Shown piece after piece: positions 1 through 38,400 of a DNA stretch of 64,000 nucleotides; position 1 is the first letter of the stretch; the number at the start of each line of letters is the position of its first letter. Made by a program: the position numbers and the translations under genes. Source of the stretch: Okamejei kenojei (lineage: Eukaryota); assembly GCA_035221665.1 (NCBI GenBank), contig CM069174.1:10788001-10852000 (forward strand), written 5' to 3'. The notes under the pieces are model-generated. The model was not told the origin of the DNA and searched no databases. It was given only the letters and a program-made list of their open reading frames with translations.

Positions 1-1018
1 GCAATTTCCACGAGGGCCTCTGAATATCAATGGCAGTGGCAACACAACGTTTGTAACATAGTGGCCACTTTTAGTGAGTGGTTAAGCATTTGAATGGACC
101 GAGCCAGAGAGTTTCTTCATTTGTAAGGATTCACACCATGGAACCATATGCAGAGTGGCAGTGGGGACATTTCTGTAAACACAAATTGTGCACTAAATTC
201 ATCCTCCGCATGACTCTTACAGAAGCCAGACAAAGAAACAGTGGAAGTCAGCAATATCAGGGATTGTCTGTCAAAGCCTGCAAGTTTCATGTTGTGCTAT
301 ATGGTGAGAAATGTATACATTGATCAAAAGGAAGAAAAGCATTTCAGAGCAATGGAGATTGGGGGGAAAGGTGGGATTGAAATCTCACTATATTAAATCA
401 TTCAAACAACAAAGATCCTAGCACTGATCCTTGTGGAACACCACTGGTCACTGACCTTCAATCAGAAAAATGCCTTTCTACCGTTGTCTTTTATTCCATT
501 TGTTTTGTCCTGTTAACCAAGGACCACCATTAAACAACTCCACAATTTCTGTGAGCCAATCCTACTCAGGAAGAGGAGGGGAATGGAAATAAAGGATTAT
601 CAAAAATGTTTCTTTTTAATATCATGGGGTCAAACTACAATAAACCAGAAAATTAATAGATGAGATTAGTCTTCAAGCAAGTCAAAATATCCAGCACTAA
701 CCAGAGCACAATGGTTTAAATCAAATCATATGAATAGGAATGTGGGTAGGATTTATTCCCCTATTGGTTTGTCAAGATGATTCGTCAGAGAGCAACCAGA
801 GCATCCTACATTACAGTGGGACAAGAGTCCCATCAACCAGCTAAGGTTTCTTCTCTTCAGGACATCAGTAAGCCAGATGGGCTTTTCTAACAATTCACCA
901 GCTTCATAGTTATAGAGACTAACTTTTCTCTAAAAATAACCACTCCTACAGCTGCACTTTCAGTCATTACTCCAGCAACATGACAAATCTACTGCCAATC
1001 CTGCCAGTTGCAGCTTAC

Positions 1019-1120
1019 CTCCGGCACAGTCCTGAGTGTGTTGGGGTCACAGTTGTCACTGATTTCTATGCGTGGGATATTGTCACTGCCATTCAGCTGA
1101 AGATTTTCCGAACAGCCCTC
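1019..1120 (-). CDS. IL23A: IL-23 p19-like, coding exon 2 (gene continues beyond the left edge)
   Basis: Acceptor ttttctcggcag, then EGCSENLQLNGSDNIPRIEISDNCDPNTLRTVPE, then donor GTAAGC. 102 nt, phase 0/0. Matches human p19 [22 protein letters not shown] (P-x-I-x3-D-x-CDP-x2-LR). Not in the ORF track. Confidence 0.88.
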
Positions 1121-1184
1121 CTGCCGAGAAAATAAAATCAAAGTTCTGATTATTGTGTTTGTGACTCAAACATGCTACTAGTTA

Positions 1185-1505
1185 TGTGCGAAAGAACTGT
1201 AGATGCTGGATAAAATCGAAGGTAGACACAAAGTGCTGGAGTAACTCAGCGGGTAAGGCAGCATTTATGGAGAGAAGGAATGGATGATGTTTTTCGGGTC
1301 GAGACCCTTCTTCAGACTGATGTCGGATGCAGGGTGGGAAGAAGTGTAGTCAAGATAGCTATGGGAGTCAGTGGGTTTGTAGTAGATGTCGGTCAGTAGT
1401 CTGTTACCTGCGATGGAAACGGTGAGATCTGGACACGGTAGGGAGATGTCTGAAATGGTCCAGGTGAATTTGAGTGCCGGATGGAAATTAGTGGTGAAAT
1501 TAGGG
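1185..1505 (-). mobile_element. Internally deleted Penelope-like element with 11-bp TSD
   Basis: RT fragment (FHPALKFTWTISDISL...DIYYKPTDSHSYLDY) fused to the terminal repeat unit. GCTACTAGTTA at 1174-1184 and 1506-1516. Confidence 0.82.
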
Positions 1506-1839
1506 GCTACTAGTTAGTTGTTCATGATCATAGTATTGAAATCTGACACAGTGCTGTTTGCCACTTAACCCAGTCACAGCTGCAAGTCTGAATCTCCTAA
1601 CATCCAAAGACCACTAAGAAATACTCTTGTGTTGTTTTGTTGAATTCACAACCTCCCTGTCATCCACCTAACCCCAATCTCTATCCCGTTAGAACTCTGC
1701 ACAACAACAACTTGTGTTTTTCGAGGATGTGTAAGCAACACAGATGTCAAATAAATGAACCAAATCAGGAGTTCTTTAGGTAAGTTACCAAAGGCTCGGT
1801 CAGAGAGAATCAAAACAAAATTCCAGAATGCACCGTGTC

Positions 1840-2135
1840 AACTCACCAAGACTCAGACAGCACCTTCCAACCCCATTACCTCAACCAGCTAGAAGGACCA
1901 GGACAGCAAAAACATGAACATCACCGCCTGGAAGTTGCCCTCCCATCCCCCACCGACCTGACTTGGAAATACATTATCGTTCCTTCACTGTTACTGGATC
2001 AACATCCTGGATCGACATTTGCACCTCAAGGACTGCAGTAGATCAAGAAGGCACCACCACCTTCTCCAGTTCGATTAGGGACAGGTCATTAAATGACGGC
2101 TCAGCCTGCGAAGTCCTCATTCCTTGCATGAATAC
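1840..2135 (+). mobile_element. Ancient LINE 3' end (CR1/L2-type shark repeat)
   Basis: ctgacttggaaatacatt..gttccttcactg..ggactgcag..caagaaggc..caccaccttctc. Related tails at about 5040-5105, 50710-50750 and 59030-59135. Confidence 0.55.
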
Positions 2136-2856
2136 AACACCCAGCAAGTCAAACAATATCTATGGGGATTAAAAGCGAGGCAGGGTTTAGATGCAGAGAG
2201 GTTTGCGTCGCTCATATGGAAGCAATGGCTCGCAATCTTGCAAATCTTTTGGTGCGGTGGGATGAATGCACCATTCTAACTTTCAAATCAAAACCCTGCG
2301 TCAGTTAGTGTTAGGTGACAATATTATTCCTGGTGTGCCCGCATGATTCAGCAAACTTGGAAATGTTTACCAGAACACAATATCGCGCACCCACTGTATT
2401 GTGCTGTGCCTCCCGTGAAGAGGAGGATAAGGAGAGTCTAAAATGTTGTTGCGTTCATGAGAATTTGATTCCTCATTAAAAGAGCTGAGGTGGCCTTAGA
2501 GGGAGTGAGCGGGCATTATATATCACTGTCAAAATTAAAAGGCAGTTTTAATTCGGTCAATCATTTAATGTATTTAATTGGGAGTGCGCGTTCCTGCTGT
2601 TCTCGACACACCCCTGAGTGCCAACAGAGCGAGATGAATTGATTTAAGGCCACTTGGGCCAGTTAATCAAAAATGTCCAGTTGCGTTCTAATGAGAATGG
2701 AGTGAATGCGTGCAGCGATGACCCGAATCATCTGCCCTGCTCAGTTCAGGCCGCGAGAGACTCTCGGCACATTTATATACGGAACTCATCATCTGCAGAT
2801 TTGAGAATTAACAATATGAAACAGGTTATCACAATATACGTTCTGAATAATCCAAT

Positions 2857-2960
2857 CAGTCTGAAGAAGGGTCCCGACCTGAAACGCCGCCTGTCCATTT
2901 CCTCCAAGGTACTGCCCGACCTGCTGAGTTCCTCCGGCACGGTGTTTTATCCCGATATAC
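2857..2960 (+). mobile_element. Solo Penelope-derived terminal unit (hammerhead-like core 2861-2888)
   Basis: CTGAAGAAGGGTCCCGACCTGAAACGCC...CTGCTGAGTTCCTCCGGCA. Confidence 0.65.
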
Positions 2961-3924
2961 GATGATTTCATAATCAGTTGATCAGTACTTTTGTATCGAT
3001 TTGGAGGTTTCATATCCAAAATAAGTTTATATATTCTTGAAAGTAACTGTTCTTAAAATAATTACACGAAAGTATTCAAGAATCTACCCCTGGTCAACGA
3101 CCTGAAACGCGGACTCGCTTTTTTTCTTGGCAGATGCTAACTGACCTGCTTAACATTTCCAGCATCTTCTGATTTAGTATCACAGTCTATACTTACTGGA
3201 GAATATTTCCTCCGATGTAATTTATTTTATTTTGGAGAGACAGTTATCACCTCTAGGGGATAGTTAATTTCGTAAAATGAATATTTTTTTCCTTCATTCC
3301 TCGGCACTGGCTGTCTCACACATCAATGATTTTAAACTTTTCTGTACTCCTCCTTCCCCCCCCCCCCCCCCCCCCCCCCCCCCTCTCCCCTATTTTCTTC
3401 GAACTGGATTCACAGCCCCGATCTCCTATTTAAACCACCACAGACGTGCTAAATGATTTAGCCGGCACCACTCTCAATTCCTTTAGAAAAATTAAATGAA
3501 TGAATAATAAGTGAGTCGTACAGCACGGATCAGCTCTCTGGACCAAGGTGCTCCAACTAGACTAATCCCACCTGGTCGCGTTTGGTCCATACTCCTCTAA
3601 ACCTTTCCTATCCATATACCTGTCCAAATGCCCTTTAAATGTTATGAATATCTCCACTGAAATTCATTTATTACTAATAGTTTGTGCATATTTAGTTCAT
3701 GTTCCAAATAAGTAAACGTTTTAAAATAGCGGGAATTCGCATTATAACACTTAACTGAAAATATATCGATTTCTTCAAATGCAAACGTTTGATTTGCAGT
3801 TACCCAACTTAAAAATATTTTAACATCACTAAAACTTATGTTCATTGCATGGCGTGGTTAGAATTATTCATTGATTAAGCCAGAAACAAATAAGGTAAAT
3901 GGTATTCATTTTGCAGCCACTCAC

Positions 3925-4080
3925 CGGTCTGTGTGTATAATTAGAAACCTTTGAATTGAGATTCCTGGAAAGAGTTCGACAGGATATCCAACTGGGCTGC
4001 TGATCGGTCTCTAACGCTACGATCCCGGCTACACTGAGCAGCCAGACCAGAGCCACCATTCCGAAGCATCTCTCCATCAT
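3925..4080 (-). CDS. IL23A: IL-23 p19 (interleukin-23 subunit alpha)-like, coding exon 1
   Basis: Encodes MMERCFGMVALVWLLSVAGIVALETDQQPSWISCRTLSRNLNSKVSNYTHRP: a signal peptide followed by PSWISCRTLSRNL, resembling human p19 PAWTQCQQLSQKL. Ends at a phase-0 donor CCG|GTGAGT (156 nt). Lies head-to-head with PAN2 as in human. Confidence 0.85.
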
Positions 4081-4159
4081 TCCTTCAGAAAAGTCACAGC
4101 CTAGCACGAAACTACAGCGAATTGTCGAGCACAATCCAATACAAGACACTACAGGTCCC

Positions 4160-4220
4160 GCCTTATAACCGACCTTCTTGGTACAACGGAATTTCCCAGT
4201 TCAAGTGGGGGTGGAAGTGG
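4160..4220 (-). promoter_or_regulatory. IL23A proximal promoter: TATA box, NF-kB site, ETS core
   Basis: TTATAA at 4163-4168 (about 85 nt upstream of the ATG). GGGAAATTCC on the - strand at 4188-4197 is a consensus kB site. GGAAGTG at 4213-4219. Confidence 0.7.
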
Positions 4221-4724
4221 GGTTTTCAAATAACCTACCTACACTAATTTGTCTGAATAAGGTTTTTTTTTTTAATCTACCTTAAACTAATTTACCTGTC
4301 TCACCCATGTCCACCTCTTCTGCAAAAGAAAATACAACCCACACTTTCCACTGGGGGAGTAATTTGTTTCGAAAATATGTTTCATTATGTGGGTTTGCGT
4401 CAATCGCTGGGTTACGAATTCCTGTGGTCACTTGCTTCAGAAATGTCATTGAACGATATTTTCATGAGTAGTTATTCAATTAAAGGGTAAAGGGTCACTA
4501 CAGAAATGGCAGAAAAACGCGACAAAGTGTTAAGCGTTGGAGTTTTAGCGGGATATAATTTCGCTCTCAAAAAGTAAGAAGTAGTGCGTGGAATAATGTT
4601 CCAACATATCGTATTCAGGTGAATATTAACACCATTGTTCCCTTCAAACTCTACGCGTATTTTATGTTTTTAATGATTTTTCGCTGGAGAAATTAGGCAA
4701 TGGATGCTGGAAAGTGTAGAAATT

Positions 4725-4830
4725 AACTGCAGGCTGGTTTATACCAAAGATAGACACAAAAAGCTGGCGTAACTCAGTGGGTCAGTTAGCATCTCTGAAG
4801 AGTGACCTTTCGGATCGAGACCCTTCAGAC
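4725..4830 (-). mobile_element. Solo Penelope-derived terminal unit, decayed
   Basis: + strand reads agacacaaaaagctggcgtaactcag...tttcggatcgagacccttcagac. Confidence 0.6.
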
Positions 4831-5456
4831 GGAGAATCAGGGGAGAGGGAAACTGGAAGTCAGACTGAGATGTTAGTGGCTGTTTGTTAGCTATGGGTGT
4901 CATGTCAATTTTTAAAATATATTCCGTTACAACATATTAGCAGCTGAATTTGGTGTGGGGGATGAGTGGTGGGCTTTTGAAGCACAAAAGCTTCACAAAG
5001 AGCTCTGGTGACATAATAATGATGTTAATCAAATCCAAGGGCAGTTGTGGGTAGGTAATAAATGCTGACCTTGCCAGTAATGCCCACAACTCGTTGATGA
5101 ATAAAAAGGAACTGAAAGGAATGGGTAATGGCGCTTTTGTCAGATAAAAACTGTGCCAAAAAAGCAAAATGGAACCTCTATCAACGGATAAGGTCCAGTG
5201 GCCATTTGTTTCCCTTTACAAATATACTTTGAAATATCCCCCTATTATCCAGAAACACTGTTGTAAGATGGACAGATCACCTGTAAACATTTCCAATTCC
5301 AAACATTAGGTTTTAGCAGTGCCACCACTTTTAACATATGAATCAAGGGGTCGTTTGTTTGCCTTTTTGGCCATTCATTTTTTAGAGTGTTTTATTGTCC
5401 TAGGTCACGAAACAGAACAATTAACTTCTTACTTGCAGCAGCACAACGGATATGTA

Positions 5457-20179: not shown

Positions 20180-20491
20180 ATGAATTTTAATGGTCTTGAT
20201 TCTGGCCTTGGAGAATACAACTCGCCTCTGCATCCTGGCATCAGTGCTTCCTTGGACCGCTCAATTGAGCATTCGCTGGATCCCAGACTTGACCCGACCT
20301 TGCTGCAGAATATGGAATTGGAAGGAGAAGGTGTCCAGTTAGATGGCATGTCGGTCTCTGTGTCTGAATCTGTACATCTTGTGGAAGGCATGTATTCAGA
20401 ACTACACACAGTCGTTGCAGAAGTTGGAGTCCCTGTAACTGCATCGCATTTTGACCTTCAAGATGAATTACTTTGGGTGGGAAATCATGGG
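20180..20491 (+). CDS. PAN2: PAN2 coding exon 1
   Basis: MNFNGLD...LLWVGNHG|gtaagt; acceptor at 20171. Confidence 0.95.
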
Positions 20492-23400
20492 GTAAGTATA
20501 GTACAGCTTCTCCAACCAAGAAAGATTGGCAATACCTGGTTTAGAAGGGACATTTTGGGCAGTGCTGGAAAATAAATTGTACTTCCATCGCTTCTCTGTG
20601 CAGCTAGGATGATCAAGCACTGCAGGATGATAATTCACAATGCACCAACTTGCTACTCTGCTTTTATTTCTCTATCTAAAGTAACAAAATTAAGTGGTTT
20701 AGGAATCAAGAACAAGCAAAGAATGCCTGGATGACATGTGGTGTATGTATATCATTAAGATTGAAACTGAGCTGTTAAGAGCTTCTGTTTAGAACGTGCA
20801 ATGTAATACTTATCAGCTGTTTTGACCATGGAATTTCCCCTTTTATGTAATGATTAATCCAGTTGAAAGTAATCTTAACGGCTCTGATCACGTCCCAGAA
20901 CTCAGACAGAACTCATCCTCGTTACATCCCTAAAAATGTTTGAATGTACATTAATTAATTAATGGTGGATGTGGAATGAAACGTGCTTAATTCCACATTG
21001 CTCCACTGCTGATGCAAGAGTGGCTGTGGGAGATGAACAGAAAGCTTTTTTCCAACATTTTCTTTTTAATTTGAAAAATAATCCTCAAATCCCATTCACC
21101 TTCTCCCCATAACATCTTGTGAGAGATGGGCATGTTCCTAGCTAGGCAATTATACACTGCAGCAGTGAAAAGCATATACATGCAATGCCAACCTTTGGTT
21201 TATAATTGTGACTATAGATCATATTTCCCCTTCCTTCCACTGTTATAGTCATTAGGGTTCTACAGCATGGAAACCGGTGTAATGGTCCAACATGTCTACA
21301 CTGACCAGATGTCTATTCAAGCTAGTGTTTTGCTTGTGTTTTGCCCATGTCTCTCTTAACCTCTCCTATCCATATACCTTGTAGAAGTTGTAATTGTACT
21401 TGCCTCTACAACTTTCTCTGGTGTCTTGTTCCATATATGCCCCACCCTCTGTGTGGAAAAAGTTGTTCATCAGTCCCTTTTAAGTCTTTCACCTCGCCTT
21501 TCCTGCGTCTAAATCTAGTCGTTTAATTTTAAAATACCTTAAACCGGGAAAAGACTGTGACTGTCCAACTTATCTACTCTTGTCATGTTCTTGTATACCC
21601 GTATAAAGTCACTCATCTACACTCCAGGGAACAAAGCCCCAACCTACCCAGGTTCTCCTTATAACTCAAGATCTCGAGTCCCATAACATCGACGTGAAAC
21701 TTCTTTTCAGCTCAGTGATATCCTTTGTACAGCTGAATGACCAGAACCGTGCACCATACTCCAAGTGTGGTCTTGCCAATGACCTTTACAGTTGCAACAT
21801 GACGTCCCAACTCCTGTATTCAATACCCCAATTGATGAAGGCAACCATGCCAAATGCCACCTTCACTGCCCTGTCTACCTGTGCTGCCACTTTTGGGGAA
21901 CTAATTACTTGTACCCTAGGTCTCTCTGTTCTACAACATACTCCAGAGCCCTGGGATTTACTGTACAACTCCTGCCCTGATTGAACTTGCCATGTCGTGG
22001 TCTAAATGTTGGTATTCAATTGGGGTATTGAATACAGGAGTTGGGACGTCATCTTGCAACTGTACAGGTAATTGACGAGACCACGCTTGGAGTATGGTGC
22101 ACAGTTCTGGTCATCCAGCTGTGGTTTAAATGTTAGTTCAAATTAACTCGGGGAATTCTTACTATAGATAGATCTGTCATAATCCACGCAGGCTTCCTGT
22201 AGATCACTTGATTCAGTCCATTCATTCCACCTTTATCCCATGACTTCTCTAAATTATCTTTCCCTTGAGTACTGATCCAATTCAATTTTGAAAGTTCCGG
22301 TTGACTCTGTTTTCACCACTTCCAGATGGATTGTTCCTAGATCATAACCACTTTGTATGCTTCAAAAAAGGCTTTTTGCTTGCATTTTTCCCTTTTCACT
22401 TCCACACTGTATCTTTTAACCTTCACTTAAAATCTATGTGCTGTTGATCTTGAACCATACACAAAAGTGGACGGCTTCTCTGAAAAGTTGTTCTCAATGG
22501 ATTTTGTTTTTGTTTGTGTTTTATTGGTTGCTAAAATCACCAAAACATTCCTAAACATTTGAAGGCCTTCGTATACTTAAACTAATTCTTGTAAAGTTGT
22601 GCTGAGATGTTCTGCAGTTTTTGAGGAGTGACCAAGGCGTGTGCTGAAATGACCTTGCAGTATAGATAATTGATTTGGGCGTAATGCCAAACTAGATTTG
22701 AACTGAATTTCTAAGACTTTTAAATTGTCATTGATCTAACTAAAAAGGATATGCTACTAATGAGCTGATTTCTGTTTTGCTGGTGCTTCAGCTTTACCTT
22801 CATAGACGTGTAACTAAATTTGTTTATGAACGTTCTCTCTAGGGCCATGCAACCTCCTTTTTTGGTCCGACAATGGAACGATACTCTTCCTTTCAAGTTA
22901 ATGCCACCGATGACATTCGTCAGATACAGAGCATAGAAAGTGGAGTGCTCTTTTTGAATAAGAATAATCTCAAGTGCTTTACTCGAGGAGGTCTTATAAT
23001 GTTTGATTATGTGTAAGTTTCTTTTAAATATTTGCACTTCTGCAGTTTTTAAAGTAAAACTATCTTTCCCATCTTTCCCCCAGCGCACACCCCCTCCTTT
23101 GTGCAGGTGTTAACTAGAATATTTGTTCCTCATTTGAATGGCTGTTCCTAAGGGACTTGATTTCTGCTTTGTCTTGAACCACCCATTGGCCTAGTGATCT
23201 GTAGATACCTGTAAGGAACCATATTAAATGGCTGCAAGACATTGCCTTTAATCTGCCTTTTAAATAGCTTACTTTTTTGTGTTTACTCAAACTTGCATGA
23301 AGAAAGAACATTTGAGCTATCTGAGGACTGCTGACACTTCTGTCATTGTATTTCAGAATGAGTTGGCACCTCTAAGAAGGAAGAGAAAACTTCAAAGTAA

Positions 23401-26400
23401 ACACTTGCTGAGTGTTTCCTGTATTTTCTGTTTGCCTGTTTGGTGTTTTTTTCATATTCTTGTCTGTCCCAAATATTGAACTGCATGCTTTATTTTTCAC
23501 ATTTAGTATGGATGAAGCGGAGGACATGCACAGCCTCCTTCTCACTGACAATAACTCCGTTCTTCTGGGGGGCCTTCAGAATCATGTTAGAGAAATAGAC
23601 TTAAATGCAGTACAAGAAAGTGAAAAGGTAAGGTACTGAGTGCGAACTTTCTAAAGTATTTGCAGCTGTAGAAATGTGTTTGAGGATGGAATTGCAAATA
23701 TCGGGCACCCAACCATATTGGTGCTAATTCGTATACTTGTCGTGAACTCTTTGTTGTATCTCCTGTTGAATGGGGGGTGTTTGAAATGGTTGGTAGAATC
23801 TGGTTCATGACATCTCGAAGTGGTTTTAATTTCCTTGTGATTGGTTGCCACAGACATCCCCTAATTTCCATAATTTGCAGGAATTGTTTTATTTGAAATA
23901 CATTCATTTTCTTTTGTAGATTTTAAACTCGAGTTAATATATGATTTGAGATACCTCTTGCTCTTGTCTCCTTCAAATTTTATTGGGATCTCTATTTCCA
24001 TACTTCCTCCATATCAAATGCATTTTCACTCCAATTCTTCGTCCCCACCATTTTAAATGTCTTTTAAAACTGAATCCCAAAGCTTTGTGTGGTTCACTGG
24101 TGCTTTATCCAGTTTCCAGCTCTTGTGCCAACATATCAAGGCTTTATAAACATCTTGTGAAATTTTATTTGAACATGCTCTGAATGGTGATGTTTTGCAT
24201 TAATATATGAAGTTTCATTTTTGTATCTCCCTTTCCAGTACACAGTCGAGCTTCCCGGAGTCACAATTATGCGGCAGTCTAACCGCTTCTTCTTTTGTGG
24301 CCATACATCAGGAAAGGTATTTGTATAGAAGCTACTGAATTTAAAGCAATTTGTAGCAACAGGAACAAACTGATCCCTTTTTCTGATTGTTGCTACAAAC
24401 TTCTCAACATGCCCCTCATTTCCTTCCCAATCCTAAAGTGTACATAACCTGTCTGTGAAGTGCCTGGCAGTTAAATATAAAGTAATCTATTTTGGTGTTC
24501 GGTTTAATTAACTGATTTAAATTGAGAATTGTTGAAATGTAGAGAAACCTGGGTTCACTGGAAGTAGAAATGGACTTAGAACGGATAGAAACATTTAGGA
24601 CGTAGAACAGTCACTATATCTGTGTCCAATTTAATGCCAAATTAAACTAACCCTTCTCCCTGCAGGTGATCCATATCCCTCTGTTCCTTACATATTACAT
24701 AGTCTTGTGCCTAGTTAAAAGTCTGGTAGCGCATTCCAGGTACCTACAGCACAGATTTAAAAAAAAAACAACTTTTTTAAAAAACTTGTGCCGCACATTT
24801 AATCCCTCCCCCACCCCGGACCTAAAAGCTATGCCCTCTAGTCTTTAACATTGCCACCCTGAGGGTAAATACTGCCTCTCATAATTTTATAAACTTCTGT
24901 CGGGTCTCTACTCCAATTTATTTTTTTAATTCATGGAGGTAGTGCCAGCAAAACCATCAGCAAATAGTTGCAGCTGTACACTGCAGAAGTGAGACTTTTT
25001 TACTAAATGTAACAACAGAAGAGGAACCATAAATAGACTTAAGCATAAAGGAAGAACAAATTGGAGGCATCAATTTTTGGAATTGGTGACTAATCTCCCA
25101 CAGAGGCCATAATGGGTGATCAGGTCTGAATCGCACTCTTCCCTCGCATTTACCCTTTCTCCCTGTTCAAGGTGATTTGATGGTACTGGCTTTCCACCTA
25201 AAGCCACTATTCTCTTGAACTGAGACCGTGAGCTTTGAAGAGTTGATGAGGAAAGACAATTACAAAGCAGCACAGTGGTGCAGCTGGTAGAGCCGCTGCC
25301 TCGCAGCGCCTGAGACCCAGGTTTGATCCTGACCTCAGGTGCTATCTGTCTGTGTGGAGTTTGCATGTTCTCCCTGTGTATGCTTGGATTTCCTCCGGGT
25401 GCTCCATTTCCTATCACATCCCAAAAAGTGTGGGTTTGTAGGTATTACAAAGCACATCCTTGACTGCATGTATGCATTTTGCCACTGAAAGATACTGGAT
25501 CATGGTAACGATTGGATAACTTAGCTGTACCCCACTGGTCAAAACCCACAAATGGTGCGACCAACTTGTGGTATTCATATTGCTGTGTGGCTAGGACTGA
25601 GGCTGGGGCTTTCCTGGATTGTGTAACATCGTACCACACTGGTGGTGAGTTCACGACTATTGAATGAGAATGTGCAGATTGCTTTTATTGCATAATGATT
25701 ATTTTGCGCTTTAGGTATCTCTTCGAGATTTAAGAAGCTTTAAATTGGAGCATGAGTTTGATGCGTACTCTGGAAGCCTCTCTGATTTTGATGTACATGG
25801 AAACCTGCTGGTGACATGTGGCTTTTCAAATCGAATGAATGGGCTGTCATGTGACAGGTTCCTGATGGTTTATGACCTCCGAATGATGCGGGCTATTAGC
25901 CCCTTGCAGGTTCATGTGGATCCACTCTTCCTGAGATTTATTCCTACATATACTTCAAGGCTAGCCATCATCTCTCAATCAGGTATCTTACAAAAACTAA
26001 AAGTTCTATAGATATTTTATAATTCATTAATGGCTGTTGCTCAAAGTATGCTATACTAAGATGTCAGGAATATTACACCATGGAACATGCACAGCATTAT
26101 TCACTGCTTGGGTGAAAATGTGTCACTTGATTACAAGGAGCAACGAGAGGTTAATTGATAAGAAAATTTCTTTTGGTTTGCAGTTATCACGAATCTCCAA
26201 TTTCTCCTCAAAATCAGTCCAAGACCAGGAAATATTAATTTTCCTATTAGTTTCCTTTTTAAAAAGAGTATGACAACTTTGTATTTGATTCATCAGCAAG
26301 CCTTTATTTATCGGTCTGAAGAAGGGTTCTGACCCGAAAAGTCACCTATCCACCATCTCCAGAGGTGCTGAGTTACTCCAGCACTCATAGCAAAAGGATT

Positions 26401-29400
26401 TGAGTATAAGAACAGGGAGGTTCTACTGCAGTTGTACAGGGTCTTGGTGAGGCCACACCTGGAGTATTGCGTACATTTTTGGTCTCCTAATCTGAGGAAA
26501 GGCATTCTTGCCATAGAGGGAGTACAGAGAAGGTTCACCAGACTGATTCCTGGGATGGCAACTTGTTACTCAGTTGAAAGTTTTCCTACAAACTGAGCTC
26601 CATTTCCGCTCTTCTAATTTTGCCGAGGATAGATTTATTTAAAAGAATCTTGGCATCTGGTGAAATTGGGCCTGTGATGGTTATAGTATGGCAACATTTA
26701 AAAACAAACTGGCCAAATGTCATCAGTGCCAGTAATCTTTCCAACAATCAGAAAGGAGATTAAATGTTAACACTTGGTTCTATTTGAAAAACATTTGGGA
26801 ATATAATGTTGCATGACGTTGCATGAATATTTTGCAATGTCCTTCCAGCCGCTAAAGCTGACTCCATCCTCAAAGGAGCCACTTTTGGAGGCTGCCACTG
26901 AAATGGTATGCATTTATGGGATATGCAGTTGATGAATGTTGGCTAAATATAATGGGCATGCATGCACTTTTATTGTTGGTGAAAGATCTCATTTGAACTA
27001 CAATTTGTTGCAGCAATCTTTTTTTTGCGTCTTTTTGCAGGGCAATGTCAGTTTTGTGAACCAACGGGCCTAGCAAGTCCAGCGGATATTTTCCATGTAA
27101 ACACTGTGGGACAGTTAGTTATGACATTTGATGTATCCTCCAGCAAGCGAGCATTGGTGTTCGGAGACTCTGGAGGGTGTGTGCATCTGTGGGCAGACTC
27201 GCCAGAAGCTACGTTTAACGCATACTCCCGTGAAACTGAGTTTCCAATGCCGTGTATGGTAGATACGCTGCCACATCTGGACTGGAATGATGATCTCTTG
27301 CCTTTATCCCTTATTCCAGTACCTCTTATCACAGAATCTTTGTTGTCTGACTGGCCAACAGCAAACTGCGTTGTTACACCTAGGTAATTAAAAGTTGAAA
27401 GTAGAATTCTTATAAATGGAGGCATGTAAAGCATTGGCCTGCTGAGTTCTTCCAGCACCGTATTTTTGCTCATTGCTTAAAGTTATTGAATTTGCTTTTA
27501 TTTAATGTGCCAATCGTTTACAATCATTGACCTTTTGACTGCTTTTATTTCAATTAGTTCCTTAAATTGTTGATATTCTCATTATTTCTCTCAGTGGATA
27601 AAAAAAAACCACAGCTACTTTATTCCCCTTTTTGTTTACTTCAATTCAATTCAATTCAACTTTAATGTCATTGCACAGATACAAGTATGGGTACCACGAA
27701 ATGCAGTTTAGTGTCAGTACGTAGTGATAGCAATGTTTAGATAAATACAGATAAATAAATACAGGTGTGGGAATCTATCGGCGGGACTCCGAGTTCAGCA
27801 GTGCGATGGTGTTATTATAGAAGCTACTCCTCATCCTGCTGGTGCGGGACCTGAGGCTCCTGTACCTCCTCCCCGATGGTAGTAGGGCAAACAGTCCATG
27901 GTTAGGGTGGGAGGGGTCCTTGATGATCTTCCCAGCCCGTCTCAGACACCGTTTTCGGTGGAGGGCATCCAAGGCAGGGAGCGGGGCACCGATGATGTAC
28001 TGGGCGGTTTTCACCACCCGTTGTAGTGCCTTCCTGTCTGCTACGGTGCAACTGCTGTACCAGACCGTAAAGCAGGTGGTCAGGATGCTTTCAATGGTAC
28101 AGCGGTAGAAGTTGGTCAGGATCTGGGGGGACAGTTGGGCTTTTTTGAGCCTCCTCAGGAAGTAAAGGCGCTGCTGCGCCTTTTTGATCAGCTTGGAGGT
28201 GTTGAGGGACCAGGACAGATCCTCCGAGATGTGTACCCCGAGGAATTTGTAGTTGGAGACCCGCTCCACCTCAGTCCCGTTTATATGGATGGGGGTGTGT
28301 CTGCCCCCTCTGTTCTTTCTAAAGTCAACAATGATTTCCTTCGTCTTCTGGGAGTTGAGGACGAGGTTATTATTGGCACACCAGGTTGTCAGGTGCTGGA
28401 CCTCCTCCCTGTAGGCTGACTCGTCGTTGTCGCTGATCAGTCCTACCACCGTGGTGTCGTCGGCAAATTTTATGATGGCGTTGGAGCTAAACTTAGGGAT
28501 GCAGTCATGGGTGAAGAGAGAGTAGAGGAGAGGACTGAGCACACAGCCCTGTGGCACGCCAGTGTTCAGTGTTATAGTGGAGGAGGTGAGGTTGTTGACC
28601 CTAACAGACTGTGGTCTGTTAGTGAGGAAATCCAGTGTCCAATTGCAGAGGGAAGTGGAGATGCCAAGACCGCTGAGTTTGGTGATCAAGCTAGCGGGTA
28701 TGACAGTGTTAAAGGCGGAGCTGAAGTCAATGAACAGCAACCTGATGTAGGTGTTATTGCTGTCCAGGTGGGTCAGGGCAGAGTGTAGGGCCGCCGATAT
28801 GGCGTCCTCTGTTGACCTATTGGTCCGGTAGGCAAACTGATGGGGGTCCAGTGTGGGGGGGAGGCTGGCTTTGAGGTGAGCCAAGATCAGCCGCTCGAAG
28901 CACTTGGCAATGACGGGGGTGAGTGCCACTGGCCGGAAATCGTTGAGACTCCCTGTCGCTGATTGTTTTGGCACTGGCACAATGGTAGATGTCTTGAGGC
29001 AAGTGGGGATGACATCCTGGGCCAGTGACAGATTGAAAATGTCAGTGAGGACCAGGGATAGTTGTCCAGCACATGCCCTGAGCACCCGCCCGGGGATGCC
29101 ATCGGGGCCGGCAGCTTTGTGCTCATTCACCTTGCTCAGTGCATCTTGTACAGCAGAGGTGGAGAGACTGAGGGGTTGTTCATGCGGGGGTGGAGCAACT
29201 TTGATGGCTGGAGTTTTGTTGTCCCGGTCAAAGCGGGCGTAGAAATGGTTTAGCTCGTCAGGAAGGGAGGCATTGTCTGGGGGGGGAGTATTAACTTTAT
29301 GGTAATCGGCAATGGATTTGATTCCTTGCCACATGCGCCTGGGGTCAGAGTTATTTCGGAAATGCTCCTCGATCCGCCGTTTATGATTGAGTTTAGCATT

Positions 29401-32400
29401 CCTAATTCCCTTTTTCAGATTGGCCCTGGATGAGCTGTATCCCTCAGCATCGCCAGATTTAAAAGCGGCGTCGCGAGCCTTCAGCAGGAGTCTGACCTCC
29501 CTGCTCATCCACGGCTTCTGGTTAGGGAAGGTCTTTATCTCTTTGTGGGTAGTGACGTTGTCCGTGCAGAATTTTATATAGTCCAGAACGGTTGAGGTGT
29601 ATGAGTTGATGTCCACTTGGGAGTTGAAGGTGGCCTGGGTGGCAAACAGACTCCAGTCTGTTTGCTGAAACTGTTCCTGTAAGACAGAGACAGCCCCCTC
29701 AGGCCAGACCTTCACTGTCCTCACGGAAGGTTTCACGCGTCTGATCAGAGGTGTGTATTTGGGGAGCAGGAACAGAGAGAGGTGGTCAGACTGTCCCAGG
29801 TGGGGGAGGGGGAGGGCTTTGTATGCTTCAGTAATATTGGTGTATACTAGGTCCAGAGTCTTGTTTCCTCTGGTTGGGCAGGAGACATGTTGGTGGAATC
29901 TGGGGAGTACAGTTTTAAGGTTGGAGTGGTTAAAATCACCTGCAACAATAAAAGCCCCCTCTGGGTGTGCAGTTAGTTGTCTGCTGATAGCAGCTTGCAG
30001 CTCTTCCATTGCTAGCCTGGCATTAGCGTCCGGGGGTACATAGACTGCAGTGATAACAATCCATGTAAATTCCCTGGGCAGATAGAAGAAATTCCCTGGG
30101 CAGACTGCTCAATTATATTTCATTTTATGGTTACACCAAATGCAGAACCTTGTACTTAGCCTGTGAAATCAAAAGCCATCGCAATATAAAAGGGTGCTTT
30201 ACTGAAGATTGGCATGCTTGTAAGACTTTGCTTGTCAGCAACATGAGCTGAATTGTCCATTCCTCGTATATATCAATTAATCTAAAATGCATTTAGATGC
30301 CTTTGTCCATTATTCAATTTGCATCAGACACCACACAACATAATTTCCATGCACAAGATGTATGAGAGCATTTTTCTTTGAATTTTCCACCAATTAAGAA
30401 GTAAAACAGAAGTATATATGCCCACCCCACTCTTGATCATATCATAATAGAACTGCCTCCATATCCAGTTGTGCTATATCACTTGCCTGTTCTGAAATTT
30501 GAGACAAAGCTCTGAATTAACGTTGTATGTGACGTGCGGAGATGAAATAGTTTAGGACTTGTTTGTTTCAGGCTATAATGTTAATGTGGTTTTTGCTAAT
30601 GGTGAAATTGACACAAAGGATTTTCAATTTGAAACACTCTGATTTTCCTCTGTGATTAACACAATATCAAATCTTGTTACTTTTTCCTTGTTATTTTCTT
30701 TTCAGCTTGTTCTTGCAACTTGTTTGGGTGATCATAATCTTGGATGAAATCCCTTACCTTTTTTCATATTCATTATGGAATTATATTGCTTGTATATTAC
30801 AATTAATGTCTAATGTAAGACCAAAGAAAATTCTGAAATGAAAAGCAAAGCAAACCGACGTATATTTAACGAATACCAAAATGCCCTAATATCTTCATCC
30901 TTTTGAAGAAATTGAGTTGAATTGAATACTTTATTGCCACATGTGACAAGTCACAGTGAAATTCTTTGCGTACATACCCAAGGTATGCAAATAGTTGCCC
31001 ATAAAGGATGCTTACAAAGTTACAAAGTACTCCCGCTTTGTAAGTGGGGTAATACATTTTGTAATACAGTTTGTATTGTACAGTTCACTTTGAAGGCTAT
31101 GTAATCCCTCAGTATCTTAAAATAGTCTACCAGGTATTTTATTAATATTAACTTTTCTTTGGTTATTCTTGCAGACGAGCTCCACCTGTTGACCTTGAGA
31201 TATTGCGTACCATGAAGAAAGTTGGATTTATCGGTTATGCTCCTAATCCCAAAACAAAGCTGAGAAATCAGGTTAAAAAAAAGTCTTTGTTTTTTTTGTA
31301 CAAGTAACAGTGATATTCTTATGGTATGGGGCTACAATTACTTTAGTTTGACAATGACTAGGAGATCCAGAAGTTAATTAACCTCAAGGGCAAGGTAAAC
31401 TTTAATTGGAAGCCATCCTGTCTTAAGATGGGAGGAGGGGTGGTGAGGGGGAAGATGGAGGTGGGGAAGATAGCTCTATAGAACACTGACAGCCTTGACA
31501 CCCAACAAAAGGCGGGTGGAAAGATCACAGGAGGTCTAATTGTTGGTAATCACCGGCTACTTGGATTCATTGTGCCTGATGGTATAACAGGGTAGCATTT
31601 GTCGCTCATCAGTTTAGTTTAGAGATACAGTGCGGAAACAGGCCCTTCGGCCCACCGGGTCCGCGCCGACCAGCGATCCCTGCACATTAACACTATCCTA
31701 CACCCACATTTACCAAGCCAATTAACCTACAAACCTGTACGTCTTTGTAGTGTGGGAGGAAACCGAAGATCTCTGAGAAAACCCACGCAGGTCAAGGGGA
31801 GAACATACAAACTCCATACAGACAGCACCCATAGTCGGGATAGAACCTGTATCTCCGGCGCTGCATTCGCCGTAAGGCAGCAACTCTACTCCTGCGCCAC
31901 CATGACCAGTTGAGGAGTTCCCTTGTTTAGTTTAGAGATACAGCGTGGGAACAGGCCCTTCGGCCCACACACTCCGCAGGGACCAACAATCATCCATACA
32001 TTAGTTCTATCCTACACATTAGGGACAATTTACAGAAGCCTATAAACCTGCACGCCTTTGGAACGTGGGAGGAAACCGGAGTAACCTGTACAAACACGCT
32101 ACTGACAGCACCTGTAGTCAAGATTGAACCCGGGTCTCTGGTGCTGTAAGACAGCAGCTGTGATGCCCCATTGGGATTGCTTTCTCTCTGGACAACAGCA
32201 TGGAGACCCCTTTGTCATTACCACAGCCAGCTCTCCCTTCCTTCTCTAGATGGTGATCATCATTACGGCATCCAAAGCACCACAGAGTAGAAGTAAGTCG
32301 CCCAATTTGGTCCAAGATCTTCAAACTTTCTATCCATGTGCATTTTCAAGATCTCAGACCTGGATTGGTTAAGATTCCCTTTGTGATTAACAAGCATGAT

Positions 32401-35400
32401 GTAGCTCATTGTTCAGGTTTACAGATGAAGGTTAAAGATGGTGTTCGGTTTGTGCGATGCTAATTCCTGAAAATGTACAGACATGCAGAAGTGGGCACTT
32501 CACTATTAACTTGCTTCATTTATTCTTGTGCTTAAGACCGTTCTATAAAATACCCTTCAAGGAAGTCCCTAACCTCTAGTTCCTTTTTGTGTATAGCCAG
32601 GCTAGGATGGGAACTGGTCTGCAATTGTGGGCATGAGTGTTAGTGCCATGGTATGATGGTATCACAACATATTGTCCTATAACCTCTTGTAACCTTTTTG
32701 GGGAAACTGCATGTGAGGAAGGGAAAATCCTTTTTTTTTTTTTTTTTTTTTGTATTTTGAATTCCAAGGCAATCAGTCGAGAGTATTGAGTATAGACATG
32801 AGAGGTCAAGTTACAATTGTACAAGACATTGGTGAGGCCACATTTAGAGTATTATTCAGTTTTGGTCTTCCTGCTCTAGGAAAAATGTTGTTAAGGCACT
32901 GAGAAGATCAAGGAGGATGTTGCCATGGTTGAAGGACCTGAGCTTTTGGGAGAGGTTGAGCAGGCTAGAACCTTATTGCTTGGAGCATAGGAGGATAAGG
33001 GGTGAGTTTATAGAGGTATATAAGATCATGCGAGAAACAGATAGGGAGGATGCACAGTCTTTTACCCAGAGCAGGTGAATGGAGGACCAGAGGACATGGA
33101 TTTAAAGAGAGGGGGGAAATATTTCATAGGAACCCGAGGGGCAGTTATTATACACAAAGGATTGTAGGTATATGGAATATACTGCACTATCACAACATTA
33201 AAAAAAATATATATATATGGATAAGTACATGGATAATTTAGGTTTAGAGGGATATGGGCCAAACACTGGCAGGTGAGGCTAGTGTAGTTGGGGCATGTTG
33301 GTTGGCATGAGCAAGTTGGGCCGAAGGGCCCGCTTCCATGCTGTTTGAGTCTGTGACTTTATAGTTGCTACTGTGATGTATTTGGATTAGATGGGATTGT
33401 TGGTCACTTTGGGAATTGATTGTGTAACTTCAGTTATGGCACATACATATTAGTCCGTCGAATGATATTCTCATCTTAAAGTATGGCATTTAAATTTTCC
33501 AATAAAATCTCGTGTAATGCTTGAAAGCAGAATCGGCAATTTACGAATATAGATTTTGCTTTTATTTACAAGGTTCCTAACTTATTTACTTTGTTCCTAA
33601 GCTAGAAGGCCCTGGAACAAATGCCAAATGGCCAACTAGAGGTTCTATTGCAGGAGTAAAACTACCAAGCTTGCGTATGTCTTTGTGTGTCACTGACTAA
33701 TGAAACTTTTTTGCCTCCCTCCTTTAACTTTGATAACTGCATGGTCGCTCCCACTGCTGTGCCAGGTGAAGTTGTCCAGAACAGCCCAAGAATTGATGCT
33801 AAAATCTTCTGCTATGTATGATTTAACAACACACCACTTTAACTGTTGCCTACTAAGCCATTAGCAGATCCCTGTGTTGTTTACTTTTTTAGATGATCAA
33901 TAATTAGACTTCTGTTTCTAGGTTCCATATAAATTGAAGGAGATGGATGTAGAATTTGACAACTACAATCAAATCCCTGAGTCTCCTATTGGAAGGGAGG
34001 AAGATACTCACCTGTACATGGTCCCAAAGAAATATCGAAAGGTCTGAGGCCAAAAAAAAACTACTTTGAGTTAGATTATCATTCAATGTTTGGTTCCATT
34101 GAGTAGAATTATAAAGTATTTCTGAAAGCCAGCTTATTTTAATAGAAATGTACTTTATCAGGGTATGTTCCTGTTCCAGAATACTACATTTTTAAGAAAT
34201 CTCCTACCTGAAAGTGATGTGGTTTGACCTAGGCTGCTTTCTTGTGTTTGCCAAACTTCTGGACATTACATTTTTCTAAGTCAGCTACCAGATCTCTTCT
34301 GGGAAAACCCACAGGAGTGAATTTGGATCATTGAGGGATCTTGCCCTGTATTTTGCCAGAAGAATATGGGTAGTGTTGGCCAAGTCCCTGAATTAGCCAG
34401 CACTCTGCTTCTTGGTTAACCTGGAGGTTTTTTTCCTGGTCTTCAGCCTTCACTTTTTTTCCACATTCTCTCTCTCCCCCCCCCCCCCCCCCCACCTCCA
34501 CCAGTGTCACTTGCTTTGAAGTAATTATAATATTTTTCTCTTCCTTTATAACCATATAACAATTACAGCACGGAAACAGGCCACCTCGGCCTTCTAGTCC
34601 GTGCTGAACACTTACTCTCACCCAGTCCCATCTACCTGCACTCAGACCATAGCCCTCCATTCCTTTCCCGTCCATATATCTATCCAATTTATTTTTAAAT
34701 GATAAAATCAAACCTGCCTCCACCACTTCCACTGGAAGCTCATTCCATACAGCTACCACTCTCTTGAGTAAAGAGGTTCCCCCTCATGTTACCCCTAAAC
34801 TTCTGTCCCTTAATTCTCAAATCATGTCCTCTTGTTTGAATCTTCCCTACTCTCAATGGGAAAAGCTTATCCACGTCAACTCTGTCTATCCCTCTCATCA
34901 TTTTAAAGACCTCTATCAAGTCCCCCCCTTAACCTTCTGTGCTCAATTGAGAAATGTGATAGTCGTATGTATTTTAACTATTAGATTGATTACAAAGAAC
35001 TCTTGAGCATATTTGCCTTGTGCCTAAATTATTCAGCAGTTTGATTGTAAATGTATTTGTTTAGGTTACTATCAAATATTCAAAACTTGGTTTGGAAGAC
35101 TTTGATTTCAAGCACTACAACAAGACCTTGTTTGCCGGGCTGGAGCCACACATTCCCAATGCCTACTGCAACTGTATGATTCAGGTCAGCGACATTCTCC
35201 CAGCCTTTTGTTGCATTCCTATAGTCAGCACTTGTACATTGTTAAATAAAAGTGAAAAACACCCTGGTTGTGATTTTAGTGGGGAACAATGCCACTGTGT
35301 GTTGCTATTCCATTCTGCAGTTTATAATCATTTGGCAAAAGATCTTGCCTAATTCTAATTTTTTGCCAATATTACAGATTCTATAATATTCCCAGAATTG

Positions 35401-38400
35401 TAAGATTTTTATAGCATAGAAAAGACCATTTGTTATGCCAATTCCATACTGAACATCTGAGCAACCCTGTTTGTTCCACTCCCCAGCCCTTTCCCAATAG
35501 TGCTGCAGTTTCTTTCCTTTCAGATGTTTATCCAGCTATATTTTGAAAGATACTTTCGAATTTGTTTCTCTTGCCTCCCGATCCAACCACTTGCTGTATT
35601 TTTTTTCCTTTTGCCTGTCGTCTTCATTTTATTCTTTTTAATACTTCCGCCAGTCAGAAATGTCTATTTATGATTTTAAATACCTATCGAAAGTGGATCC
35701 CCTTGCAAAAACCTCTGTAGTAAGGAGAACAACATCAGCTTCTCGGTCACTACACTAAAGTCCCTCATCTCTGAAATCATTTTGATAAATTCCTCCTGCA
35801 CCTTCTCGAAAGTCTTCGTCTTTCAATAAGTGTGCTGCCCGAAAATGGATAATATTGAGTTAAGGCAGAGCCAGTGTTTTTGTGAAGGAAGAGCGTGCAA
35901 AAGGACCTGTGAGGAGAAAAATGAAGGGTATGGTAGCTAGCCTTCGGTATTGAGGGCCTCCAGTTTTCACCTGAAAGATAAAAATAGGTGTTTCCCCACA
36001 AACTAGAAGCAACAATAGAAATAAGGAACAAAAGTGGGAGTAGTCCACGCAGCTTCTCCATTTGTCTTTACAATGTATTAAGATATTGCCTGATCCCCTG
36101 ATTCACTTCCCTGACAAATCCCGTGATTCATTTGCTATTCAAATATCTACCTTGTCTTGAATATCCTCATCCACAGCCCTCGGGGGAAAGATAATATCAA
36201 AGATTTCCAATACTTAATGACGTTTCTTCTCATGGAAGTCCTACGTGTATAATTCATTATCCTGAGACTGACATGAGTCAGAGAAAACAGCCTCTCAGCT
36301 TCAATGATTCTTTATCAACCTTGTCTGTTCTTTTCAAAATCTTGTGTTTCAATGAAATCATCTCCTATTATTTTTAACCCTGGCAACTCTGGTGTCCTCC
36401 TCAGATGACCCCTTTATCCCAGGAGGAAAGTAATTAGAATGTAATCTCCACCTGTGAGGTATCCCAACAAAAATATTTCATTCCAGTTCATTTTGGATTT
36501 GGGTCTAGTCCTACAATATCAAAATGCTCCAAGATACTTATTGCAAATCAGTTGTCAGTCTCATTCCTGCAGTGGGGAAATGGAAGAATATTGTACTCGT
36601 ACAGTAGTAAGTAGTCATCTGATTATCTTGAAGTACATTATTGGACAGGGTAGAATGACTTGAGCTCTATTTAACTGTTTTAGAAATACAGTTTTATAGG
36701 GGGTACCTGATGTTGGAATGATCCACTTTTCAGAAATAGCATTTAGGTGAAAATTTAGAATGTAAGATGGATGTAATCCAAATTAATAATTAAGACAAGT
36801 TTGTCTTGCAGTTATTTTAATGACTTTGTTTTCTTCGCTTCTCCCATTGTAGGTGCTATATTTACTGGAGCCCATCCGTTGCCATGTTCAAAATCATCTG
36901 TGTCAGAAGGAGTTTTGCTTGGGCTGTGAACTTGGATTTCTGTTTCACATGCTTGATCTCTCCAGAGGTGACCCATGCCAGGTAGATGAATGTTGAGCTT
37001 GTAAAGTGGACGGTGTGATCATTGAGCATTGTGTTCATTATGTGGATTGTTCTAACTGCATCACCTTGGCCAGAATAGTCATCCGTATTTCGCGTATAAT
37101 AAAAAGCAAAAAATTCAACGGTAGCAGATTTTTTTGGGGGAAAAAAAATGTCATTCCAACTAATCCCATCTGCCTGCACATGATACATATCCCTCTATTC
37201 ACTGCCTGTTTCTGTGTCTAAATGCCACTTGCCTGTTGCTATTGCATCTGCTTCCACCATCTCCCTTGATGGCATGTTCCAGCCATTTACCACTGCAATT
37301 CTGCACTTCCACAGTACCTTTTGTGTTGGTGGTTATCCTTGAATTAGAAGAGACTGTATAGGCGTGAACGATGGTCAACAATACTCTTCCCTACTGTTGA
37401 CTATCTTGTACTTTGTCTCAAAACCAGATTACTATGGTCCCTGTTAACTTGTGGCTGTGTGCAAAATTGGGTATAAAAAATATCATGTTTTGTTTCCTTT
37501 CATTGTGTCTTATAGGCCAGCAATTTTCTTCGAGCTTTCCGAACTATTCCAGAGGCATCTGCTCTTGGGTTGATTCTAGCTGATTCGGATGAAGCGACTG
37601 GGAAGGTGAATCTGGGCCGACTTATACAGAGCTGGAACCGATTTATATTGACGCAGCTCCATCAGGAGACACAAGAGCAGGAAGGTCCACAGGCCTATCG
37701 GAGTGTCATGGGAAGGTGGGACAGCACTATTTTAAGATGGAGTAACTAGATTTATTTTTATCAAAAGCATGGGAGTTATGCATTGCACTGCAATTTGAAT
37801 TTTGCCGTCTTGAGGAGAATCCCTCATTGGCATCCCACAATTGTTATATCACAGAGTAGCCATTTATGAAAAAATATTTCCAGACAGTTTTTACTGGTGG
37901 ACAGCTAACATTATCTGTGATAAATGAAGCCAGTATTAGGCTGCAGTATTGCGGGTGACACTCTGCCTCAGCACTATTTTGATCAGTTTTATTCTGTCTA
38001 CACCCTTCACTCTACTGCATTCTAAATCTCAGCCCCATTACTGCAGGGAATGGAGAAAAGACTCAATGGTTTGTGATGCCCCTTGTTCTTATCATGGTGG
38101 ATGCAGATGAAACATGGTCTGCTTGTATCATGCTGAACCCAATATACTATTTAAATGTGGCATTCTTACAAACTTTTGTTTTTGTCTTCAGTACATTTGG
38201 ATCCTCTGGTGAATCTGTGATTGGGAAGCTGTTTGGTTGTGAAGTTGAGAACTGTAGCACTTGCCGCTGTGGGAAGGAAACTGTTCGAGTTTCTTCAAGC
38301 CTGCTTTTTACCTTGCAATACCCTGATATAAATACTGCTGGTGAGTAGTGTATGGAAAAAAGAATCATGAATTGCCTTGCCTTCACCATTACATCATTTT

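What the first reader, a model, noticed from the sequence alone, without database searches (positions are those of the whole stretch)
1019..4080. IL-23 p19 (IL23A) orthologue in a probable cartilaginous fish
Seen in sequence: two spliced exons with correct phases, encoding a signal peptide, PSWISCRTLSRNL and NIPRIEISDNCDPNTLR. Established knowledge: these match the IL-12/IL-6-family alpha chain p19, and human IL23A is head-to-head with PAN2. As I recall, p19 and other Th17-pathway genes were initially reported as missing from chondrichthyan genomes because fast-evolving cytokines escape similarity searches. Inference: synteny plus exon structure identify a true orthologue, which may be unannotated or misnamed here. 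Exon 2 also carries an extra Cys (EGC) and an N-glycosylation sequon (NGS), while the human IQCG cysteine position reads IEIS.
Basis: partly seen in the sequence, partly recalled or inferred. Interest (0 to 1): 0.78.

Follow-up and report, generated by a model that had tools for sequence, protein, structure and literature searches.

The report
Skate interleukin-23 alpha gene, first half
This is the front half of the skate copy of the immune signalling gene IL-23 p19, which is already described in sharks and rays; what remains of interest is that their version lacks the cysteine that ties human p19 to its partner chain.

Summary
Two phase-0 exons (4080-3925 and 1120-1019, minus strand) encode residues 1-86 of IL-23 p19. 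They match a little skate protein already named 'interleukin-23 subunit alpha-like' at 79 of 86 residues. Fourteen elasmobranch relatives were found, 11 carrying that name. Full-length relatives pass the Pfam IL23 cut-off and miss the IL6 cut-off. Their profile hits human p19 at E about 1e-11, IL-6 at 0.008 and not p35. PAN2 lies head-to-head, 16.1 kb away. Redmond et al. 2018 (PMC6238376) already verified cartilaginous-fish p19 by phylogeny. Exons 3-4, STAT2 and spliced reads could not be checked.

The human p40-linking cysteine position is Ile/Val in 13 of 13 relatives. The 'extra' Cys55 is invariant, as is a helix-D Cys beyond the window. I infer a second internal disulfide and non-covalent pairing with p40. 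This is untested, and loss of the linking cysteine may be known from teleosts.

The parts
4188..4197 (-). NF-kB consensus site GGGAAATTCC in the proximal promoter
   Evidence: Seven matches in the window against 6.6 expected by chance, so only its position, 21 nt upstream of the TATA-like box, is suggestive. Function inferred.
4161..4167 (-). TATA-like box TATAAGG, 87 nt upstream of the first ATG
   Evidence: consensus match only (39 matches to my TATA pattern on this strand of the window).
3925..4080 (-). IL23A exon 1 coding part: signal peptide and helix A, 52 codons, phase-0 GT donor. Cys34 (human C14 equivalent) at 3981-3979; NYT sequon at residue 47
   Evidence: (87% identical to P0003, E 3.7e-21). 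No ATG on this strand in 4081-4300. Start at 4080 or 4077; relatives P0006-P0014 begin at the second Met.
1121..3924 (-). Intron 1, 2804 nt, GT..AG, holding several high-copy repeats
   Evidence: repeat depth peaks at 1201-1600, 2801-3000 and 3401-3800 in DNA runs.
1019..1120 (-). IL23A exon 2, AB loop, 34 codons, phase 0/0. Cys55 at 1114-1112; NGS sequon at 1093-1085; Ile72 (human C54 position) at 1063-1061; Cys76 (human C58 equivalent) at 1051-1049
   Evidence: (Pfam IL23 the only family hit, E 0.026, below cut-off on its own).
1..1018 (-). Start of intron 2; exons 3-4 lie beyond the left edge
   Evidence: No match to residues 120 onward of P0003 (tblastn) and no further profile hit.
20180..55198 (+). 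PAN2, divergently transcribed neighbour; start codons 16,100 nt apart
   Evidence: PAN2_N in 5 of 5 ORFs tested at 20177-27387; human PAN2 chain 9qtu_C at E 8.4e-29; UCH_1 in 4 and a weak RNase_T hit in 1 of 11 further plus-strand ORFs tested. The 3' end near 55198 is judged by eye; that ORF had no Pfam hit.

Best explanation
These are exons 1-2 of an intact IL23A (p19) orthologue in a skate. Shown: exon structure, orthology to elasmobranch proteins that belong to the IL23 family, and PAN2 synteny. Inferred from mammalian IL-23: an NF-kB-inducible transcript gives a secreted, N-glycosylated four-helix alpha chain. It docks on p40 through the helix-D arginine and engages IL-23R through the helix-D tryptophan; both residues are invariant in 13 of 13 relatives but lie beyond the window. 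Inferred difference from human p19: no covalent link to p40 at the usual position, and probably a second internal disulfide between Cys55 (AB loop) and the invariant helix-D Cys (about 0.6).
For: 79 of 86 identity to P0003, falling to 76 (Rhinoraja), 61-66 (other rays) and 49-58 of 85 (six full-length shark proteins). Pfam IL23 48.5-52.4 bits (cut-off 27) against IL6 18.2-26 bits (cut-off 27) for 5 of 5 relatives scanned. Profile against PDB: 11 p19 sequences at E 9e-12 to 7e-10, IL-6 from 0.008, no p35 or G-CSF at E up to 10. AlphaFold model of relative P0007 has four long helices; the only two Foldseek hits at E below 0.001 are p19. PAN2 on the opposite strand; IL23A, STAT2 and PAN2 form one human locus (PMC8760939, passages). 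Cartilaginous-fish p19 and IL-23R verified by phylogeny (PMC6238376, passages). Cysteine, Trp and Arg columns; human cysteine roles: PMC6739322, passages.
Against: Only 86 of about 200 residues are in the window, so family tests rest on relatives, and a broken exon 3 or 4 here cannot be excluded. The fold searches do not separate p19 from its kin: VIA-align Z 14.1 for p19 (rmsd 3.3, 138 aligned) ties with IL-11 at 13.6 (3.7, 158), with IL-6 at 13.1 (3.8, 150), on a model of mean pLDDT 62. The ESM Atlas feature search listed LIF, G-CSF-like and IL-6-like clusters first and no IL23 cluster among the ten rows shown. No tree with outgroups was built. The second disulfide is inferred from conservation alone; no atomic distances were available.
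Confidence: 0.95

Rival explanations
1. An IL-6/IL-12-family paralogue (p35-like, IL-6 duplicate or CSF3-like) that resembles p19 but is not its orthologue.
For: Relatives carry a weak Pfam IL6 match (E 8e-6 to 2e-3). Structural Z-scores for p19, IL-11 and IL-6 lie within 1.0 of each other. Cartilaginous fish have lineage-specific IL-6 duplicates (PMC6238376). Cys55 has no counterpart in human p19.
Against: IL23 scores exceed IL6 by more than 20 bits in 5 of 5; p19 beats IL-6 by about nine orders of magnitude in E-value and p35 is not hit; the gene sits beside PAN2.
Confidence: 0.02
2. A true p19 that still links covalently to p40, using another cysteine (Cys55, Cys34 or, in sharks, the C-terminal Cys).
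For: Cys55 is invariant in 13 of 13 and lies in the same AB loop as human C54; 8 of 8 shark sequences carry an extra C-terminal Cys. Fish IL-12 keeps an interchain bond (PMC8481787, passages).
Against: Cys55 lies 17 residues before the human C54 position and is matched by an equally invariant helix-D Cys, which accounts for both as one internal pair. The C-terminal Cys is absent at that column in 5 of 5 batoids. Human C54S still assembles, with an intermediate effect on secretion (PMC6739322).
Confidence: 0.2
3. A pseudogene or truncated copy in this species.
For: Exons 3-4 are not visible. One position that is Thr in 11 of 11 comparable relatives (an NLT sequon) is Asn here.
Against: Both exons are open, splice sites and promoter motifs are intact, and exon 2 is identical in protein to little skate.
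Confidence: 0.03

Closest known systems
Elasmobranch 'interleukin-23 subunit alpha-like' proteins (Leucoraja erinacea P0003, Pristis pectinata P0007, Mobula birostris P0005/P0006 and others)
   Same: 79 of 86 residues identical to P0003; same cysteines, same NGS and NYT sequons.
   Different: Seven substitutions against P0003, all in exon 1, including loss of the NLT sequon. P0003 and P0004 carry 33-40 extra N-terminal residues for which this window has no start codon.
Cartilaginous-fish IL-23 p19 of Redmond et al. 2018 (PMC6238376)
   Same: Same claim: p19 exists in cartilaginous fish despite its reported absence from the elephant shark genome.
   Different: That paper used transcriptomes and trees; 'synteny' and 'cysteine' do not occur in its main text. 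Its supplements and figures could not be read.
Human IL-23 p19 (IL23A; Pfam PF16649; PDB 5mxa_B, 8cr8_B)
   Same: Helix-A Trp and Cys (C14), the CDP cysteine and its partner (C58-C70), helix-D Trp and ARVF motif align; neighbour PAN2.
   Different: C54 (link to p40) is Ile/Val and C22 is Thr/Asn. Two extra invariant cysteines (AB loop, helix D). Several N-glycosylation sequons.
IL-12 p35 and IL-6
   Same: Same long-chain four-helix fold (IL-6 Z 13.1, IL-12 entry 8xrp_A Z 9.9). p35 has three internal disulfides (PMC9731863, passages); one joins the AB loop to helix D (recalled, not from a call).
   Different: No p35 sequence hit at E up to 10. I could not align the extra cysteines to p35 residue by residue.

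Membership tests
IL-23 p19 (IL23A) | Pfam IL23 (PF16649) above its gathering score and better than IL6/IL12/GCSF | tested here: met
   5 of 5 full-length relatives scanned: 48.5-52.4 bits against cut-off 27. Exon 2 of the window alone scores 15.1, below cut-off but the only family hit; exon 1 alone does not hit IL23.
IL-23 p19 (IL23A) | Best solved-structure relative by sequence is p19 | tested here: met
   (relatives). The single exons alone found no p19 chain.
IL-23 p19 (IL23A) | Signal peptide and long-chain four-helix bundle | tested here: met
   Hydrophobic N-terminus; helices 28-45, 85-106, 112-134, 162-188 in the model of P0007; p19 ranks first in both fold searches, tied with IL-11 in one.
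IL-23 p19 (IL23A) | Internal disulfide pair (human C58-C70) | tested here: met
   First Cys in the window (Cys76); both invariant in 13 of 13 relatives. The bond itself is not shown.
IL-23 p19 (IL23A) | Helix-D Trp (receptor site) and Arg (p40 site) | tested here: met
   W163 and R185 of P0007 invariant in 13 of 13 and aligned to human p19. Outside the window. The Trp's role is from PMC6744436 (passage); the Arg's role is recalled.
IL-23 p19 (IL23A) | Location beside PAN2 | tested here: met
   The head-to-head orientation in human is recalled; the paper read shows only the shared locus.
IL-23 p19 (IL23A) | STAT2 on the other side; four exons | not testable with these tools
   No genome is held for this window. 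Two exons seen. The human four-exon, phase-0 layout is recalled.
IL-23 p19 (IL23A) | Groups with bony-vertebrate p19 in a tree | not tested
   No bony-vertebrate p19, p35 or IL-6 sequence was returned by the searches. Published for cartilaginous-fish p19: BPP 0.95, UB 97% (PMC6238376).
Mammalian-type covalent IL-23 heterodimer | Interchain cysteine at the human C54 position | tested here: not met
   Ile72 here; Ile 8, Val 5 of 13 relatives. This is a feature of the covalent mammalian and avian form, not of gene orthology.
Mammalian-type covalent IL-23 heterodimer | Binds p40 and signals through IL-23R/IL-12Rbeta1 | not testable with these tools
   No elasmobranch p40 sequence was at hand; no complex was predicted.
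IL-12 p35 | Pfam IL12 match or sequence hit to p35 | tested here: not met
   No IL12 family at E up to 1 in 5 of 5; no p35 chain at E up to 10.
IL-6 / G-CSF | Pfam IL6 above gathering score | tested here: not met
   18.2-26 bits against cut-off 27 in 5 of 5.

The most novel reading that the evidence does not exclude
Elasmobranch p19 preserves an early state of the IL-12 family alpha chain. It has lost or never had two of the three free cysteines (C22, C54) that hold human p19 in the ER, and has a second internal disulfide from the AB loop to helix D. It would therefore pair with p40 non-covalently and might fold and be secreted on its own. A human mutant without C14, C22 and C54 is partly secreted without p40 (PMC6739322). 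The covalent link and strict assembly control of mammalian IL-23 would then be later additions.
Probability: 0.3. Interest if true: 0.55.

Novelty: already known. Interest (0 to 1): 0.24.

Why it matters
The gene itself adds one species to a known set. It gives synteny support, beside the published trees, for p19 in the common ancestor of jawed vertebrates. That matters a little because a 2025 survey still dates p19 to birds and mammals (PMC12162339, passages). The clade-wide cysteine pattern offers a simple test of how the covalent, chaperone-controlled assembly of IL-23 evolved.

Tried and rejected
Whole-genome look for exons 3-4 and STAT2: no genome held. Expression: no RNA holder listed among 9 runs. 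Four of the 9 were laid: X1 and X3 are DNA contigs of related animals that cover both exons; X7 and X8 are probably DNA, have no depth over exon 1 and show no listed contig spanning exon 2. No joint at 3925/1120 among the 15 shown (2101 not shown); this says nothing on splicing. Single exons against PDB: no p19, too short. ESM Atlas: four-helix cytokines in general, no IL23 cluster shown; a lead only. Fold searches do not discriminate within the family. NF-kB motif count is at chance level window-wide. Literature on the cysteine pattern: searches and finds in PMC6238376, PMC12162339, PMC2946394 and PMC4690019 showed no statement on elasmobranch p19 cysteines; one search (IL23A, synteny, PAN2, STAT2) gave 0 papers. 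Most subscription papers, including the teleost p19 cloning papers, are not in the library, so this is no proof of absence. Earlier findings of this scan: none.

Full report
Observation. Exon 1 runs 4080-3925 (156 nt) into a GTGAGT donor. Exon 2 runs 1120-1019 (102 nt) between a pyrimidine tract ending in CAG and a GTAAGC donor. Both junctions are phase 0 and the intron is 2804 nt. All quoted motifs are present. A profile built from 13 relatives hits only these two ORFs among all six-frame ORFs of the window (E 9.8e-20 and 1.5e-19, next 1.1). Nothing matches the C-terminal half of the protein, so exons 3-4 lie left of base 1. No whole genome is held.

Identity. Exon 1 found five batoid proteins; profile searches widened this to 14 proteins from 5 batoid and 8 shark species. 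Eleven of the 14 are named 'interleukin-23 subunit alpha-like', two 'uncharacterized' and one 'hypothetical'; all 14 carry the precomputed IL23 domain. The two exons together match little skate P0003 at 79 of 86 residues, Rhinoraja at 76 of 85, other rays at 61-66 and the six full-length shark proteins at 49-58 of 85; two further shark records align over exon 2 only. The source is therefore most likely a skate. Five of the 14 were scanned against Pfam: all pass the IL23 cut-off (48.5-52.4 bits against 27), none passes IL6 (18.2-26), none hits IL12. Against the PDB the 13-sequence profile finds 11 p19 sequences at E 9e-12 to 7e-10, IL-6 from 0.008, and no p35 or G-CSF at E up to 10. The window's exons alone are too short for this: exon 2 gives Pfam IL23 at E 0.026, exon 1 nothing relevant, and neither finds p19 in the PDB.

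Structure. An AlphaFold model of the sawfish relative P0007 (13-sequence alignment, mean pLDDT 62, pTM 0.63) shows four long helices. Foldseek's only two hits below E 0.001 are p19, with IL-6 third at 0.0014. VIA-align ranks p19 first (Z 14.1, rmsd 3.3, 138 aligned), tied with IL-11 (13.6, 3.7, 158) and close to IL-6 (13.1, 3.8, 150). The ESM Atlas listed LIF, G-CSF-like and IL-6-like clusters first and no IL23 cluster in the rows shown. Structure thus confirms the fold class but does not decide the family; sequence does.

Surroundings. PAN2 starts on the plus strand at 20180, 16,100 nt from the IL23A start codon. PAN2_N matched 5 of 5 ORFs tested, the first exon matched human PAN2 at E 8.4e-29, and UCH_1 and a weak RNase_T match followed in 5 of 11 further plus-strand ORFs. 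IL23A, STAT2 and PAN2 share one human locus (PMC8760939, passages); the head-to-head orientation in human is recalled. Upstream of exon 1 lie a TATA-like box (4167-4161) and, 21 nt further, a perfect NF-kB consensus (4197-4188). The motif occurs 7 times in the window against 6.6 by chance, so only its position is suggestive.

How it most likely works. By inference from mammalian IL-23, an inflammatory signal induces the transcript, the glycosylated alpha chain folds in the ER, docks on p40 and signals through IL-23R. The helix-D Trp and Arg that serve these contacts in human p19 are invariant in 13 of 13 relatives; they lie outside the window. An IL-23R orthologue exists in cartilaginous fish (PMC6238376). 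None of these steps is shown here.

The cysteines. Human p19 has an internal C58-C70 bond, C54 linking to p40, and free C14 and C22 (PMC6739322, passages). In alignment A2 (13 of the 14 proteins; P0005, an isoform of P0006, left out) the C58 and C70 equivalents are invariant. The C14 equivalent is present in 11 of 13, the two misses being records without a proper N-terminus. The C54 position is Ile in 8 and Val in 5. The C22 position is Thr in the same 11 and Asn in the window. Two cysteines without human counterpart are invariant in 13 of 13: Cys55 at the start of exon 2 and one early in helix D. The simplest reading is a second internal disulfide from the AB loop to helix D, a link I recall from p35, LIF and growth hormone but could not check by alignment or coordinates. 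It follows that skate p19 would bind p40 non-covalently. Human C54S still assembles, with an intermediate effect on secretion, and a mutant lacking C14, C22 and C54 is partly secreted alone. Against this: Cys55 or, in sharks, a C-terminal Cys (8 of 8 sharks, 0 of 5 batoids at that column) could serve as another link. The loss of the linking Cys may also be general in fish: a duck p19 paper lists zebrafish for the internal cysteines and the Trp but not for the p40-linking Cys (PMC6744436, passage).

What is known. Redmond et al. 2018 found IL-23 p19 in cartilaginous-fish data sets and verified it by phylogeny (BPP 0.95, UB 97%), noting its earlier reported absence (PMC6238376, passages; supplements unreadable, and they may hold the sequences and alignments). 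A 2019 review repeats this (PMC6795676, passage). A 2025 survey of 405 species nonetheless dates p19 to birds and mammals (PMC12162339, passages), which the proteins found here contradict. I found no statement on elasmobranch p19 synteny or cysteines in searches, but the library lacks most subscription papers.

Limits. No RNA run was available, no tree with outgroups could be built, and p40 binding was not tested.

Verdict. Interest 0.24, carried mostly by the cysteine pattern.

Noticed in passing
window 4081-4200 (minus); P0003, P0004: The database proteins of Leucoraja (233 aa) and Rhinoraja (242 aa) have 33-40 extra N-terminal residues that align across this window's TATA-like box and 5' leader. 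The window has no ATG in 4081-4300, so those extensions are probably annotation errors.
   Followed up: partly
window 3957-3955 (minus): Residue 42 is Asn, where 11 of 11 comparable relatives have Thr in an NLT sequon; this position aligns to human C22. Species change, allele or assembly error not resolved.
   Followed up: no
P0009-P0016: All 8 shark proteins end with an extra Cys near the C-terminus that 5 of 5 batoids lack at that column; Heterodontus P0010 has a further Cys three residues before the human C54 position.
   Followed up: no
window 27775-30108 (minus): An uninterrupted 777-codon endonuclease/reverse-transcriptase ORF of a non-LTR retrotransposon inside a PAN2 intron (RVT_1 E 7e-33); possibly a young copy.
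   Followed up: partly
window 5450-6850: A high-copy, RT-like repeat remnant between IL23A and PAN2 (deep in DNA runs up to 6000); no Pfam hit for the ORF at 5601-6167.
   Followed up: partly
window 1220-1320, 2850-2950, 4730-4810: Copies of a short, very high-copy repeat family in intron 1 and upstream of the promoter.
   Followed up: no
window 20177-20490 (plus): The first PAN2 coding exon has about 10 more residues than human PAN2 in its N-terminal low-complexity part.
   Followed up: no
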